The translations under genes and the position numbers were made by a program. This document shows positions 1 to 2,269 of a stretch of 64,000 bases of DNA, one piece after another; within the stretch, counting starts at the first letter, position 1; every line of letters begins with the position of its first letter. The notes beneath the pieces are model-generated. The model made no database searches. It was not told where the DNA came from and was given only the letters and a program-made list of their open reading frames with translations. The stretch is from a virus (Duplodnaviria > Heunggongvirae > Uroviricota > Caudoviricetes), in the IMG/VR virus record IMGVR_UViG_3300032236_001858; one strand, 5' to 3'.

Positions 1-275
1 GAGATACTTCGATACAAATATCAATTACTATGACAGCCAAAGTGCCGAGCCGACAGCAAAGCTACCACCGACAAGTGTCACACTTGTAGGTTCAATCTCT
101 AACGAGTTTGGTAAAATGGTGAAAAGTCCGAAAAGCAACCACGTTAAAGGTCTAAGGAATTCAGAAACTTCCTTTAAATAAAGAACTGAGTGAGATAGTC
201 ACTATAACCATCGGCAAAGTTTCGGGAGAATTCTTTGTAACGCTTAGGCTAAATTTACTTGTTTGCGATAATTAT
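1..275 (+). ncRNA. Candidate structured ncRNA/leader upstream of Ro60 (possibly Y RNA-like); 5' end may lie outside the window
   Basis: No ORF; visibly more GC-rich than other intergenic DNA; stems ACAAGTG/CACTTGT (71-87), AAGGAA/TTCCTT (154-174), AGTGA/TCACT (189-203); possible long-range TGCCGA(43-48)/TCGGCA(211-216); T-loop-like GGTTCAATC (89-97); GTCCGA at 126-131; adjacent to TROVE gene. Confidence 0.55.
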
Positions 276-318
276 AAAAGACCAGATTAACAGAAATGTT
301 ATCTGGTCTTTTTTTTTT
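276..318 (+). terminator. Intrinsic terminator directly upstream of the Ro60 gene
   Basis: AAAAGACCAGATTAACA-GAAA-TGTTATCTGGTCTTTT stem followed by a run of T. Confidence 0.85.
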
Positions 319-352
319 GTAAAAAAATTAATAAAAATTAAAAATATAGATT

Positions 353-1804
353 ATGTCAAAATTTAACACAACAATGCCAAAGGCAAAGACTTTAACTGAA
401 AACTTAGCAGGTGGACAAGCTTATTCACAATCTGATGAATTGGCTTTGGTATCACTATTATTAACATCATTTGTTAATGACCAGTTTTATAGAAATGCTC
501 AAACATCATTAGATGAGTTGAGAAGACTTTCTGCTAAAGTGAAAGATAAAGAGTTTGTTGCTAAGGCGGCTATCTTTGCTCGTGACCGTTTCGGTATGAG
601 AAGTATTACTCATGCTCTTGCTGGTGAATTAACTTCACAACTATCGGGTGCTGAGTGGGGTAAAAACTTCTACGACAAAGTAGTTGTTCGTGTTGATGAT
701 ATGACTGAAATCATGTCATACTACTTAGCTTATAAGACTTCTAAAGATAGTCCTAAGTTTCCAAACGCCTTGAAGAAAGGTTTTGCTAAGGCTTTTGATA
801 AGTTTGATGGTTACCAATTAGCTAAGTACAAAGGTGACAACAAAGAAGTGAAACTTGTTGACTTGGTTAACATTGTTCACCCAGTTCCTACCTTTAGAAA
901 CAAAGCGGCTCTTGAGTCACTTGTTAAAGGTGAGTTGAAAAACACACAAACTTGGGAATCTATGTTGTCTCAAGCTGGTCAAGTAGCTGAGTCTGAAGAA
1001 GACTTGACTAAATTGAAGTCTGATGCTTGGTCTGAATTGATTTCTACTAAGAAGATTGGTTACTTTGCGCTTCTTAGAAACTTGAGAAACATTATCACTC
1101 AAGCCCCAACAGCTGTTAAATCAGCTTGTGAAATGTTAGTTGATGAAAAGTTGATTAAGAACTCAAGAGTTCTTCCATTCCGTTTCTCAACTGCTTATGA
1201 AGAAATCAGTAAGATTGGTTCTTCTAAAGAAGTAAGAGATGTTCTTATGGCAATTAACCAAGCGCTTGATATTTCTGTTGCTAACGTACCAGTATTTGAC
1301 GGTGAAACACTTGTTGTTATGGACGTCTCTGGTTCTATGAGTGGTAGACCATCTGAGATTGCGTCATTGTTTGGTGCTATCTTGGCTAAAGTTAATAACT
1401 GTGATGTTATGACTTTCTCTACTGATGCTAAGTATATGTCTTATAATCCAATGGATTCTGTAATGACTATTAGAAATAGCTTCAGATTCTCTGGTGGTGG
1501 AACAAACTTCCGTTCTATCTTCCAGAAGGCTAACAAGAAGTATGACAGAGTTATTATCTTGTCAGACATGCAAGGTTGGGTGGGTTATACTAGTCCATCT
1601 GCGGACTTTTCTCAGTATAAAAAGAAATACAGTGCTAACCCATTTGTATATTCTTGGGATCTTGCTGGTTACTCTACACTTCAATTCCCAGAACAAAATG
1701 TCTTTGCTTTGGCTGGATTCAGTGATAAGGTTTTTCAAATAATGTCTCTTCTTGAAGAAGATAAACAAGCATTATTGAATGAAGTCAGAAGCATAAAAAT
1801 ATAA
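353..1804 (+). CDS. rsr: TROVE-domain RNA-binding protein (Ro60/Rsr family) with C-terminal vWA domain
   Basis: AIFARDRFGMRS, KKGFAKAFDKFDGYQLAKY, TWESMLS, YFALLRNLRNI; vWA MIDAS DVSGSM, GGGTN, ILSDMQ. Confidence 0.92.
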   Translation: MSKFNTTMPKAKTLTENLAGGQAYSQSDELALVSLLLTSFVNDQFYRNAQTSLDELRRLSAKVKDKEFVAKAAIFARDRFGMRSITHALAGELTSQLSGAEWGKNFYDKVVVRVDDMTEIMSYYLAYKTSKDSPKFPNALKKGFAKAFDKFDGYQLAKYKGDNKEVKLVDLVNIVHPVPTFRNKAALESLVKGELKNTQTWESMLSQAGQVAESEEDLTKLKSDAWSELISTKKIGYFALLRNLRNIITQAPTAVKSACEMLVDEKLIKNSRVLPFRFSTAYEEISKIGSSKEVRDVLMAINQALDISVANVPVFDGETLVVMDVSGSMSGRPSEIASLFGAILAKVNNCDVMTFSTDAKYMSYNPMDSVMTIRNSFRFSGGGTNFRSIFQKANKKYDRVIILSDMQGWVGYTSPSADFSQYKKKYSANPFVYSWDLAGYSTLQFPEQNVFALAGFSDKVFQIMSLLEEDKQALLNEVRSIKI

Positions 1805-2269
1805 TTATGCTTCTGGTTTTCTAACCTCATTATTTTCATGTCTTTTTATCCAATTACAATTATGACATAATATTTGATAAGTGTTATCGGTATCCGATAA
1901 CACTTTTTTGTAATATGAAAAAACAGATGAACGACTTTTAAGCTCTTTATAACCACCTCCATTTATATGATCTATACATAAAGCTCTCTTGTCTTCAAAT
2001 CCACATCTTGAACAAGAGTGTCCTAGTTTGTCAAATATTTTTTCTTTAATATCACCTAATTTGTCTTTAGACCATTCTTTTTGATATACTCTTCTATAAT
2101 CCTTATTATTTTCCTTCCACTCTTTTTGTTTCTCTTTCTTTCTTAAAATTCTTTCAGGATTTTCCAATTTATCCTTTTCATATTTTTTTTTATTTAGAGC
2201 TTTAATTTTTTCTGGATTATTTTTTCTCCATTGTCTAATATATTCTCTTTTTTCTTCTATTGTTTTCAT
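1805..2269 (-). CDS. HNH endonuclease with basic N-terminal helical repeats
   Basis: CSRCG...LCIDHINGGG...YQILCHNCNWIKRH. Confidence 0.8.
   Translation of the reverse strand: MKTIEEKREYIRQWRKNNPEKIKALNKKKYEKDKLENPERILRKKEKQKEWKENNKDYRRVYQKEWSKDKLGDIKEKIFDKLGHSCSRCGFEDKRALCIDHINGGGYKELKSRSSVFSYYKKVLSDTDNTYQILCHNCNWIKRHENNEVRKPEA

What the first reader, a model, noticed from the sequence alone, without database searches (positions are those of the whole stretch)
1..1804. Phage Ro60 gene preceded by a structured RNA that ends in a terminator 34 nt before the start codon
Seen: a 275+ nt non-coding, GC-enriched, multi-stem region, then a strong terminator (276-318), then TROVE. Neither promoter motif used elsewhere in the window lies in the 34-nt gap. 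It contains a T-loop-like GGTTCAATC and GTCCGA (126-131), the sequence found in the Ro-binding strand of animal Y RNAs. Known: bacterial Ro60 (Rsr) genes are usually flanked by tRNA-like Y RNAs and act in RNA degradation and repair. Inference: this is either a divergent phage Y RNA or an attenuator-type leader through which Ro60 senses its own RNA ligand or damaged tRNA. An autoregulated phage Ro60 RNP of that kind is not something I know to be described.
Basis: partly seen in the sequence, partly recalled or inferred. Interest (0 to 1): 0.8.

Follow-up and report, generated by a model that had tools for sequence, protein, structure and literature searches.

The report
Giant Y RNA beside phage Ro60
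The stretch before this huge phage's Ro60 gene is not a leader but two small-RNA genes of the Y-RNA kind (Ro60's usual RNA partners), one of them about three times the usual size, with a large folded domain where bacterial Y RNAs carry a tRNA look-alike.

Summary
The non-coding region is about 600 nt, not 352, and holds two tandem RNA genes plus an intrinsic terminator.

M1 is a 70-nt hairpin lying just outside the window. M2 is about 290 nt (window about -19 to 267). Its 5' and 3' ends form a stem with the same plan as M1: an outer helix, a bulged U, AGYGA pairing with UUACU, a 3-nt bulge, a 9-10 bp helix, and an invariant UACUUCG.

The same stem ("handle") sits upstream of distant phage TROVE genes. 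There it encloses tRNA-like modules that give full-length, sub-threshold Rfam YrlA hits. It also occurs in this genome's tRNA arrays.

M2's stem and its ~230-nt cargo both covary across 26 phage contigs. The cargo has no tRNA-like part and no Rfam match.

GGTTCAATC lies in an insertion unique to this phage. GTCCGA lies in the cargo, not in the stem.

The Y-RNA reading is supported. The attenuator reading is not favoured.

Phage Y RNAs are already known, and this scan has noted phage Ro60/Y-like modules in many other genomes. One unfollowed note describes the same layout in a relative. The giant non-tRNA cargo appears undescribed, so I class it as a new variant of a known kind.

The parts
1..267 (+). 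Giant Y-family RNA 'M2', the part inside the window. The RNA starts at about window -28 to -19; the 5' strand of its closing stem is CGCAAGCA-U-AGCGA-UAGUUUGAG at window -19..3.
   Evidence: Closing stem H1-H3: 22 pairs, 89% paired against 24-52% when partners are slid, 12 pairs with compensatory changes, 0/500 shuffles as good. RNAalifold recovers it independently. It is conserved in 26 distinct phage contigs. No ORF is conserved there.
5..11 (+). UACUUCG, invariant junction motif between the stem and the cargo. It is also present in M1 at window -79..-73.
   Evidence: Invariant in all 26 M2 and all 18 M1 sequences. It is present 1-4 times upstream of distant TROVE genes, against about 0.04 expected. 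Its UUAC aligns with the conserved YUAY of YrlA in the Rfam alignment.
42..66 (+). Cargo hairpin P3, with a loop holding the conserved GCGACAGC.
   Evidence: Inner 4 pairs: 79% paired, all 4 with compensatory changes.
67..117 (+). Lineage-specific insertion inside variable hairpin P4, which is closed by 64-66/118-120.
   Evidence: Absent from all other aligned relatives. Those carry unrelated short hairpins at this spot. P4 closing pairs are 92% paired, 2 of 3 compensatory.
118..131 (+). Conserved single-stranded block GGUGAAAAGUCCGA.
   Evidence: GGTGAAA-AAGT is near-invariant and CCG is semi-conserved. It lies in the cargo, not in the terminal stem.
154..174 (+). Cargo hairpin P6 (AAGGAA/UUCCUU), present in only part of the clade.
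   Evidence: 90% paired where present; missing in L006-L010 and L027.
189..203 (+). Cargo hairpin P7 (AGUGA-GAUAG-UCACU). Its loop may pair with CAUC at 209-212, which would form a pseudoknot.
   Evidence: P7: 78% paired, 4 of 5 pairs compensatory. RNAalifold predicts the loop-to-downstream pairing, with compensatory changes.
212..242 (+). Cargo hairpin P8 (CG + GCAAAG/CUUUGU, with an inner UUC-GGGA-GAA).
   Evidence: P8: 83% paired, 4 of 6 pairs compensatory, for example AUAGAG/CUCUAU in L027.
243..267 (+). 3' strand of the M2 handle: CUUAGGCUA (H3), AAU bulge, UUACU (H2), UGUUUGCG (H1).
   Evidence: It pairs with window -19..3. The layout is identical to M1's 3' strand ACACUUUGAU-AAC-UUACU-CUGG.
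276..318 (+). Intrinsic terminator: stem-loop 280-308, then U10 at 309-318.
   Evidence: -18.7 kcal/mol, z = -5.7. Present in every M2 locus, with a nearly invariant GACCAG/CUGGUC stem. A relative's RNA contig ends 5 U into the run.
319..352 (+). AT-rich gap before the TROVE gene.
   Evidence: 21-53 nt in nearly all relatives, but 121 nt in L019 and 245 nt in L127. It contains neither recurrent promoter-like motif.
353..1804 (+). Ro60 ortholog (TROVE + vWA), 483 aa.
   Evidence: Pfam TROVE E = 6.7e-18; vWA_Ro60 26.9 bits. PDB: phiLo Ro60 9KOP/9L5Y E = 1.2e-22 over residues 12-476; also human Ro60, D. radiodurans Rsr and Xenopus Ro60.
1879..1905 (+). Terminator-like hairpin after the Ro60 gene.
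   Evidence: 12-bp stem plus a T run, found by the consensus scan.

Best explanation
The DNA upstream of the phage Ro60 gene encodes two non-coding RNAs of the Y-RNA family.

M1 is a 70-nt hairpin at window -101..-32, outside the window. M2 is a roughly 290-nt RNA at window about -19 to 267. Both are probably transcribed together from a promoter-like motif at window -145..-119 and end at the intrinsic terminator at 276-318 (inferred).

Each RNA pairs its 5' and 3' ends into a conserved 'handle'. The handle consists of an outer helix, a bulged U, AGYGA pairing with UUACU with one fixed mismatch, a 3-nt bulge on the 3' strand, a 9-10 bp helix free to covary, and then an invariant unpaired UACUUCG.

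By analogy with Y RNAs, the handle is the part that Ro60 binds, and the distal end recruits or gates something else (inferred). In M1 the distal end is a small A-rich loop, as in the YrlB/Yrn2 class. In M2 it is a ~230-nt multi-hairpin domain at the place where YrlA carries its tRNA mimic. M2 would therefore tether Ro60 to a partner other than the tRNA-recognising ones. What that partner is, is unknown.

The Ro60 mRNA is made either by read-through of the terminator or from a weak start in the gap. The terminator would chiefly set an excess of Y RNA over Ro60 mRNA.

Shown here: the structure, covariation, synteny, shared handle, and presence in RNA libraries. Inferred: Ro60 binding, co-transcription, and the role of the cargo.
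For: (1) Same-strand adjacency to a genuine Ro60 ortholog. The RNA block travels with TROVE while the upstream neighbour gene changes. All loci with TROVE at least about 70% identical carry M1-M2-terminator, with 21-53 nt to the ATG in nearly all.

(2) M1: 95.9% of cells paired against 28-50% when slid. 8 of 10 inner pairs are compensatory, and the outer helix is sequence-invariant.

(3) M2 stem: 22 pairs, 89% paired against 24-52% slid, 12 compensatory. Cargo: 29 pairs, 83.5% against 33-48%, 17 compensatory; 0/500 shuffles for both. RNAalifold finds the closing stem on its own.

(4) Distant TROVE loci (47-57% identity) carry arrays of units with the same 5' strand (GGUAGUGA-N7-GUUACUUCG) and 3' strand (UUUUCUCUCC). 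Several enclose V/T/AS/D modules that hit Rfam YrlA over the full model below threshold: L030 E = 3e-6, L022 E = 2e-4, L025 E = 5e-3.

(5) A covariance model built only from M1 finds 39 full-length units outside the clade. These lie next to distant TROVE genes, in tRNA arrays, and in this genome's own YrlA-layout unit. It finds none in the chance coding matches. Those units are 89.1% paired, with 16 of 19 pairs compensatory (the alignment is fitted to the model).

(6) With PSSMs from those out-of-clade units, M2's 5' strand ranks 6th among about 952,000 genome positions. The five sites above it all carry the same 5'-strand motif; four are handle units I examined or that the model detects, and the fifth (257.5 kb) I inspected by eye only.

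(7) The layout of two Y RNAs upstream of Ro60, one of them a short hairpin, matches M. smegmatis and phage phiLo.

(8) Conserved M1/M2 segments of relatives occur in metatranscriptome contigs. I laid four runs; 22 RNA runs from 19 studies were listed as holding part of the stretch. One contig spans only M2, up to 5 U into the terminator. One X1 contig bridges M1 and M2.
Against: No Rfam YrlA or Y_RNA hit for M1 or M2, even at E <= 10.

The literal YrlA 5' motif GNCGAAN0-1G is not present; RGUAGYGA stands at the aligned place.

The M1-derived model does not detect M2. M2's 3' strand scores weakly on sequence (4.8 bits), so M2's membership rests on its 5' strand, identical spacing, and pairing.

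One relative (L052) has the cassette with no TROVE behind it, although that contig is only about 18% of a genome.

Binding to Ro60 has not been shown for any RNA with this handle.

The RNA evidence comes from assembled contigs of relatives, in libraries that may also hold DNA.
Confidence: 0.75

Rival explanations
1. Cis-regulatory leader or attenuator. M2 plus the terminator would be the 5' UTR of the Ro60 mRNA. Binding of Ro60 or of a damaged RNA to the leader would decide between termination at 318 and read-through. This could coexist with M2 also acting in trans.
For: A strong terminator lies only 34 nt before the ATG, and no recurrent promoter-like motif lies in the gap. The arrangement is conserved, with a 21-53 nt gap. 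The terminator stem GACCAG/CUGGUC is almost invariant and resembles M1's outer helix CCAG/CUGG; in L096 both change together to UCAG/CUGA. That would allow M1's 3' strand to pair with the terminator's 5' strand.
Against: The cassette occurs without TROVE behind it (L052), or with 121-245 nt inserted (L019, L127). In L113, M1 alone carries the same terminator. The L096 co-variation is a single event and is contradicted by L027 and L052, where M1 changes to ACCG/CGGU but the terminator does not. The same handle is found on free-standing RNAs far from TROVE. TROVE contigs in three RNA runs begin at window 350-367, separate from the M2 contig; this is only a weak hint.
Confidence: 0.1
2. M2 is an independent large structured RNA of huge phages, an 'ornate' RNA like GOLLD or ROOL. 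It would merely neighbour Ro60, and its closing stem would resemble the Y handle through local duplication of M1's flanks, not through shared Ro60 binding.
For: M2's size and multi-hairpin cargo are unlike any described Y RNA. The M1-derived model does not detect M2. There is no Rfam match. L052 lacks TROVE downstream. Another unclassified ~405-nt RNA was noted elsewhere in this genome by an earlier agent.
Against: M2 keeps exactly the handle positions that are sequence-constrained family-wide: the bulged U, AG.GA, the fixed mismatch, UUACU and UACUUCG, at identical spacing. Its 5' strand ranks 6th of about 952,000 genome positions. M2 is found only next to TROVE, apart from the L052 fragment. 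M2 has no similarity to any other part of the genome, including the other ornate RNA.
Confidence: 0.12
3. The region is coding: either the 3' end of a gene starting outside the window, or the 60-aa ORF at window -2..181.
For: An open frame runs from the window start to position 181.
Against: The frame starts only 2 nt before the window, and the real upstream gene ends 250 nt earlier. The ORF is absent from close relatives and has no Pfam match. Substitutions follow base-pairing, not codons.
Confidence: 0.01

Closest known systems
YrlA / YrlB Y RNAs of bacteria and mycobacteriophages (Rfam RF02553; Chen et al. 2014, PMC4201824; Wang et al. 2018, bioRxiv 10.1101/312249)
   Same: Encoded close to, and on the same strand as, a Ro60 ortholog. 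The 5' and 3' ends pair into a stem with a conserved 5'-strand motif followed by YUAY. There are two or more Y RNAs per locus, one of them a plain hairpin. Distant relatives of this very locus carry V/T/AS/D tRNA-like modules inside the same handle, and these hit the YrlA model over its full length.
   Different: M1 and M2 get no YrlA hit. The 5' motif is RGUAGYGA, not GNCGAAN0-1G. M2 has no T or D arm: a ~230-nt covarying multi-hairpin domain stands in their place, making the RNA about three times the usual Y RNA length.
Yrl1 / Yrl2 of Thermus phage phiLo with phiRo60 (PMC12135203; PDB 9KOP, 9L5Y)
   Same: This is the closest solved relative of the protein (E = 1.2e-22). It has two Y-like RNAs in the non-coding region directly upstream of a phage Ro60 gene, with a stem-bulge-stem plan.
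   Different: The phiLo RNAs were picked out by a CGAA motif, and as described they follow the ordinary stem-bulge-stem Y-RNA plan. No large cargo domain and no UACUUCG handle are reported there. I did not compare the RNA sequences.
D. radiodurans Yrn1 in the Ro60-Y RNA-PNPase machine (RYPER; cited in PMC4201824)
   Same: It gives the working model used here: the stem binds Ro60, and the distal module tethers an effector.
   Different: Yrn1 is a short Y RNA (about 120 nt, from my own knowledge) and keeps a T-arm-like element. No partner is known for M2, and this phage genome encodes no RtcB. I did not search it for PNPase.
Large 'ornate' phage-associated RNAs (GOLLD, ROOL)
   Same: They are several-hundred-nt, multi-hairpin non-coding RNAs found in phages near RNA genes, and their function is unknown.
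   Different: There is no Rfam match to either. M2 is smaller and is closed by a Y-type handle. In the loci fetched here it lies beside Ro60 and not in a tRNA array.

Membership tests
Y RNA (Ro60-associated ncRNA), YrlA/YrlB sense of Chen et al. 2014 | Encoded within 4 kb of a Ro60 ortholog, on the same strand | tested here: met
   M2 ends 34 nt before the TROVE ATG, and M1 ends 384 nt before it, both on the + strand. The same holds in about 30 related contigs.
Y RNA (Ro60-associated ncRNA), YrlA/YrlB sense of Chen et al. 2014 | 5' and 3' ends pair to form a long, bulged terminal stem | tested here: met
   M1: 19 pairs, 95.9% paired. M2: 22 pairs, 89% paired, 12 compensatory, confirmed by RNAalifold.
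Y RNA (Ro60-associated ncRNA), YrlA/YrlB sense of Chen et al. 2014 | Conserved 5'-strand motif GNCGAAN0-1G (the proposed Ro60 contact) | tested here: not met
   The literal motif is absent. A different invariant motif (R)G-U-AG(U/C)GA occupies the aligned model positions. Whether Ro60 reads it is unknown.
YrlA proper (Rfam RF02553) | tRNA-like module with conserved T and D stem-loops | tested here: not met
   ARAGORN and the Rfam tRNA model find nothing in M1 or M2. The only T-loop-like string lies in an insertion unique to this phage.
YrlA proper (Rfam RF02553) | Score at or above the Rfam gathering threshold (69 bits) | tested here: not met
   No hit for M1 or M2 at E <= 10. Units in distant TROVE loci reach 30.6-41.8 bits and other handle units about 25-26 bits.
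Phage 'handle' family defined here (model R1) | Full-length match to the covariance model built from M1 | tested here: inconclusive
   M1 is a seed sequence. M2 is not detected even with filters off, as expected for a ~250-nt insertion. However, M2's 5' strand ranks 6th of about 952,000 genome positions with an out-of-clade PSSM, while its 3' strand is weak at 4.8 bits.
Y RNA (any) | Physical association with Ro60 | not testable with these tools
   This needs EMSA, RIP or a structure. Complex prediction handles only protein partners.
Transcription attenuator / leader | Terminator mutually exclusive with a conserved antiterminator, and obligately coupled to the regulated ORF | tested here: inconclusive
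   The terminator is present. No conserved alternative pairing was found except the single L096 co-variation, and I did not search for one exhaustively. Coupling is broken in L052, L019, L127 and L113.
Ro60 / Rsr protein | TROVE (HEAT-repeat ring) domain followed by a vWA domain | tested here: met
   Pfam TROVE 65.5 bits; vWA_Ro60 26.9 bits, just under the cut-off. Full-length match to phiLo Ro60, plus Rsr and vertebrate Ro60.

The most novel reading that the evidence does not exclude
The Y-RNA handle may be a portable docking module that huge aquatic phages attach to very different RNA cargoes. These include plain loops, T-arms, permuted tRNA mimics, whole tRNAs in two further topologies, and, beside Ro60 itself, a ~230-nt folded domain (M2). 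M2 would then be a new class of giant Y RNA that couples Ro60 to a partner outside the tRNA world. It may exist partly as a circle: one metatranscriptome contig closes on itself from 5 U into the terminator back to about 9 nt before the stem.
Probability: 0.35. Interest if true: 0.75.

Novelty: new variant of a known kind. Interest (0 to 1): 0.62.

Why it matters
Ro60 and Y RNAs are conserved from bacteria to humans, and Ro60 is a major lupus and Sjogren autoantigen. What the variable end of a Y RNA does is still largely open.

Here, closely related Ro60 genes are paired either with tRNA-mimic Y RNAs or with a much larger, unrelated but equally conserved domain on the same handle. This natural cargo swap separates the Ro60-docking part from the effector part, and it offers a defined RNA with which to fish for a new Ro60 partner.

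It also shows that Rfam's YrlA model misses a widespread phage branch of the family, so Ro60-encoding huge phages look 'Y-less' in annotation when they are not.

One phage Ro60-like protein, Bas63 gp130, was reported to counter the ppl defence (bioRxiv 10.1101/2024.10.10.617714). These RNPs may therefore matter in phage-host conflict.

Tried and rejected
Rfam. Gathering-threshold searches of the window and 17 loci, and E-value searches of the region, gave no Y RNA or YrlA hit and no other family for M1 or M2. The weak hits were driven by the terminator.

ARAGORN found no tRNA or tmRNA adjacent to TROVE in this clade.

First collection scan. My pattern was one base out of register for the main clade. 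It returned mostly chance matches, but it did yield L038, L052 and L065.

statistics are invalid. I defined P3 and P4 with two shared bases, which broke the bracket nesting. I redid this.

The M1-derived model R1 did not find M2, with or without filters.

BLAST of M2 against the rest of the genome found nothing, including the ~405-nt RNA noted by an earlier agent.

RtcB (PF01139) was not found in the 476-kb genome, while the control genomes gave hits. There is therefore no phage-encoded RtcB to explain a circular form.

TROVE was not found on the L052 contig, but that contig is only about 18% complete, so this says little.

RNA runs. No cover over window about 23-140 in any of the four runs. 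This is expected, because the contigs come from relatives with different variable hairpins, and it shows nothing. Shares of 0.10-0.17 are too small to name a habitat or strain.

I considered RNase P RNA, because GGUGAAAAGUCCG resembles the CR-I block as I recall it. I rejected it: no RNase P model hit at E <= 10, and the matching 3' element is part of the Y stem.

I considered an alternative pairing of AUAGUU with AACUAU after the first hairpin. It is not conserved in L007-L009 or L027.

The review PMC10870794 is not held.
Full report
WHERE THE WINDOW LIES

The window is bases 96490-160489 of a 476,236-bp virus record, 29.9% GC, rated 97% complete. The finding sits at the very start of the window, so I fetched 1.5 kb more upstream as L001 (window position = L001 position - 1500).

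CHECK OF THE OBSERVATION

The sequence is as described.
- ORF 353..1804 is a TROVE domain (E = 6.7e-18) followed by a Ro60-type vWA domain.
- Its best solved relative is the Ro60 of Thermus phage phiLo (9KOP/9L5Y, E = 1.2e-22, residues 12-476). Human Ro60, Deinococcus Rsr and Xenopus Ro60 follow.
- The hairpin at 280-308 followed by ten U folds at -18.7 kcal/mol, z = -5.7.
- Window 1-275 is 38.5% GC, against 29.9% for the genome and 18% for the stretch just upstream.

That is settled. The open frame 2..181 is a 60-aa TTG ORF that starts two bases before the window. The real upstream gene ends 250 nt earlier. The ORF is missing even in close relatives.

COMPARATIVE EVIDENCE

A protein-guided scan of viral contigs returned 31 loci with TROVE 47-94% identical. 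In every locus with TROVE of about 70% identity or more, roughly 450-500 nt upstream is conserved at the DNA level, although the preceding gene differs between loci.

The alignment shows invariant blocks separated by hairpins whose sequence changes while pairing is kept. GTCCGA lies in a semi-conserved single-stranded block of the interior. Neither is evidence for a Y RNA.

TWO RNAs WITH ONE STEM PLAN

The 7-mer TACTTCG occurs twice in every relative, about 85 nt apart.

The first copy belongs to M1 (L001 1399-1468, window -101..-32). Its layout is CCAG, a bulged U, AGUGA, a 10-bp helix, UACUUCG, a short variable stretch, AAAAAAC, the return strand of the helix, an AAC bulge, UUACU, CUGG. It folds this way in all 18 distinct sequences. 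On the alignment:
- 95.9% of cells pair, against 28-50% when partners are slid.
- 8 of the 10 inner pairs show compensatory changes.
- The outer helix does not vary at all, as expected of a protein-recognition site.

The second copy belongs to M2. Its 5' strand is CGCAAGCA-U-AGCGA-UAGUUUGAG-A-UACUUCG (window -19..11). It pairs with CUUAGGCUA-AAU-UUACU-UGUUUGCG (window 243-267). This is the same plan with the same spacing, but about 230 nt lie between the strands. Over 26 distinct contigs:
- The stem is 89% paired (24-52% when slid), with 12 of 22 pairs compensatory. For example, GAGGACA/UGUCCUC in the L014 group replaces CGCAAGC/GUUUGCG.
- Five to six cargo hairpins are 83.5% paired (33-48% when slid), with 17 of 29 pairs compensatory.
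- No shuffle of 500 reached these values. One search was a scripting error and should be ignored.
- RNAalifold, run blind on the same alignment, returns the closing stem and the terminator. It also suggests that the P7 loop pairs with a downstream CAUC, which would make a pseudoknot.

LINK TO Y RNAs

The distant TROVE loci (47-57% identity: L022-25, L030, L031, L065, L110, L125, L144) share no BLAST similarity with the window upstream of the gene. They nevertheless carry one to four TACTTCG motifs.

Read directly, these are tandem units with a 5' strand (G)GUAGUGA-N7-GUUACUUCG and a 3' strand UUUUCUCUCC. Some are plain hairpins. Others enclose a variable arm, a T-arm (GGUUCGAAUCC), a closed 'acceptor' hairpin and a D-arm, which is the YrlA layout.

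Rfam's YrlA model matches three of these units over its whole length, below threshold: L030 41.8 bits, E = 3e-6; L022 35.4 bits, E = 2e-4; L025 30.6 bits, E = 5e-3. In that alignment, GAGUAGUG stands where YrlA has its GNCGAAN0-1G motif, and UUAC stands where YrlA has its conserved YUAY.

A covariance model made only from the M1 alignment found 39 full-length units outside the window's clade. These lie beside distant TROVE genes, inside tRNA arrays, and at L157 664-806 in the window's own genome. It found none in the five chance matches in coding sequence. Those units are 89.1% paired, with 16 of 19 pairs compensatory. They show the same fixed mismatch in the middle of AG(U/C)GA as M1 and M2 (this alignment is fitted to the model).

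The model cannot bridge M2's cargo and does not report M2. As a substitute, I made position-specific scores from the out-of-clade units and scanned both strands of the genome. M2's 5' strand ranks 6th of about 952,000 positions. The five sites above it all carry the same 5'-strand motif: M1, the unit at 233.5 kb, the two at 220.3 and 221.1 kb, and one at 257.5 kb that I inspected by eye only. M2's 3' strand is weak on sequence (4.8 bits), though it pairs.

THE HANDLE CARRIES MANY CARGOES

A scan for AGTAGTGA-N6-10-GTTACTTCG gave 61 loci. About half have TROVE 240-750 nt downstream on the same strand. Many of the rest lie in tRNA arrays. Between the two strands I found:
- short loops (L131, L111);
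- a lone T-arm (L123; own genome at 257.5 kb);
- permuted tRNA mimics (L103);
- complete tRNAs called by ARAGORN that start right after UACUUC(G): Pro-UGG in L097 and L104, Asn-GUU and Gln-UUG in L116.

The unit at genome 220.3 kb, and by an earlier agent's reading the one at 221.1 kb, are the reverse permutation: a tRNA with open acceptor ends whose anticodon stem is replaced by a loop-closed handle. L129 on a related contig appears to be the counterpart of the 220.3-kb unit. Earlier agents of this scan had described these two as 'tRNA carrying a Y-RNA arm'. Wang et al. had already remarked that YrlA looks like a circularly permuted tRNA.

In the window's clade the tRNA-type units sit 124-161 kb away. 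Beside Ro60 stand M1 and M2.

TRANSCRIPTION (mostly inferred)

About 20-30 nt before M1 lies AAACTTTTT-N12-TATATAAAA (window -145..-119). Similar motifs stand in other intergenic regions, two of them nearly identical (genome 218383 and 255445). Further up, TAAAnAATCCAC...TATATAC (window -227..-185) recurs at genome 59804 and 62048. Neither motif is in the 34-nt gap.

The terminator-to-ATG distance is 21-53 nt in nearly all loci, but there are exceptions:
- L019 has 121 nt.
- L127 has 245 nt, with what looks by eye like a small ORF.
- L096 has about 115 nt.
- L052 has the whole cassette followed by an unrelated minus-strand gene.
- L113 has M1 followed directly by the terminator.

The RNA cassette is therefore a unit in its own right.

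RNA EVIDENCE (weak but consistent)

Twenty-two RNA runs from 19 studies, with aquatic labels, were listed as holding 10-17% of the sampled words. I laid four of them. Contigs of relatives (mostly 90-95% alike) cover the conserved parts of M1 and M2 and the TROVE gene.

In one lake metatranscriptome, a 365-nt contig with a depth figure of 226 spans only M2, from L001 1476 to 1813, which is five U into the terminator run. The TROVE contig there has a depth figure of 11.8 and begins at L001 1850. In another run, a contig bridges M1 and M2. Contig depth cannot rank genes rigorously, and DNA may be present in such libraries.

UNEXPLAINED

That 365-nt contig joins position 1813 straight back to 1472, and its two ends share 30 nt (k-1). 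It is therefore a closed cycle of about 335 nt in the assembly graph. Possible explanations are a circular M2, tandem M2 copies in that relative's DNA, or a library concatemer. The genome encodes no RtcB. I could not lay more runs.

WHAT IT IS AND HOW IT PROBABLY WORKS

The best reading (about 0.75) is a pair of Y-family RNAs that partner the adjacent Ro60. The sequence-constrained handle would be the Ro60 site. The distal end would be the effector or gate, as in the model established for Deinococcus Yrn1 and proposed for YrlA (PMC4201824). M1 corresponds to the short-hairpin class (YrlB, Yrn2). M2 is a variant in which the tRNA mimic is replaced by a large folded domain of unknown partner.

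The attenuator reading (about 0.1) and an unrelated ornate RNA (about 0.12) are not excluded. Coding sequence is excluded.

COMPARISON WITH WHAT IS KNOWN

Y RNAs next to phage Ro60 are known. Chen et al. identified YrlA-related sequences in 22 bacteriophages, among them mycobacteriophages that encode Ro60 (PMC4201824). Yrl1 and Yrl2 lie upstream of phiLo Ro60 and were shown to bind it (PMC12135203). TROVE proteins were noted in some jumbo phages (PMC7824862).

I found no description of this handle variant, of a Y RNA with a ~230-nt non-tRNA cargo, or of whole tRNAs inside Y stems. That search covers only the held library.

Within this scan, phage Ro60/Y-like modules with a conserved handle have been reported many times in other genomes. 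One unfollowed note describes the same ~380-nt RNA, terminator and TROVE layout in a relative.

One functional lead: Bas63 gp130, a structural Ro60 look-alike next to a tRNA array, counters the ppl defence (bioRxiv 10.1101/2024.10.10.617714).

VERDICT

This is a real feature, correctly suspected to be a Y RNA, though for the wrong reasons. It is a new variant of a known kind. Interest 0.62.

Noticed in passing
L001:1472-1813 (window -28..313), run X4 record 20: A 365-nt metatranscriptome contig of a relative covers exactly M2 and joins its 3' end (5 U into the terminator) back to its 5' end, with a 30-nt overlap between the contig ends. This is a closed cycle. It could be a circular RNA, a tandem DNA repeat or a concatemer.
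   Followed up: partly
L097:1791-1887(-), L104:4756-4891(-), L116:724-857 and 1086-1184: Complete tRNAs called by ARAGORN (Pro-UGG, Asn-GUU, Gln-UUG) start immediately after the UACUUC(G) of a Y-type 5' strand and are followed by the matching 3' strand. These are whole tRNAs embedded in Y handles, inside phage tRNA arrays.
   Followed up: partly
own genome 220261-220404, 221075-221200, 233455-233615, 257505-257625 (outside the window): Four more handle-bearing units lie in the genome's tRNA arrays: one, and by an earlier agent's reading a second, tRNA-Y hybrid with the permuted topology (open acceptor, loop-closed handle); one unit with the YrlA layout; and one with only a T-arm as cargo.
   Followed up: partly
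L052:5500-6030: A relative carries the complete upstream element, M1, M2 and terminator cassette, but a minus-strand ORF follows instead of TROVE. A GIY-YIG/NUMOD3 homing-endonuclease-like gene lies just upstream. No TROVE is on the 103-kb contig, which is about 18% of a genome.
   Followed up: partly
window -227..-185 (genome 96262-96304); also genome 59804 and 62048: The element TAAAnAATCCAC(C)-N26-30-(G)TNATATATAC recurs three times in the genome. Its arms CCACCUUUG/UAGAGGUUG change in a compensatory way by eye in several relatives, but not in L128. It may be a promoter, an operator or a hairpin.
   Followed up: partly
window 280-308 versus window -99..-32: The terminator stem GACCAG/CUGGUC is almost invariant across 26 loci, which is unusual for a terminator, and it resembles M1's outer helix CCAG/CUGG. 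In L096 both change to UCAG/CUGA. In L027 and L052 only M1 changes.
   Followed up: partly
L113:7614-7740: A relative has M1 followed directly by the same terminator hairpin, with no M2 and no TROVE in the 1.5 kb that follow.
   Followed up: no
window 189-212: RNAalifold pairs the P7 loop GAUGG with the downstream CAUC, with compensatory changes. Together with P7 this would form an H-type pseudoknot in the M2 cargo.
   Followed up: no
L156:1276-1406 and L157:118-195: Sub-threshold Rfam tmRNA hits (31 and 21.8 bits) lie in the own-genome tRNA arrays. The first spans the second tRNA-Y hybrid, so it is probably a tRNA-like domain and not a tmRNA.
   Followed up: no
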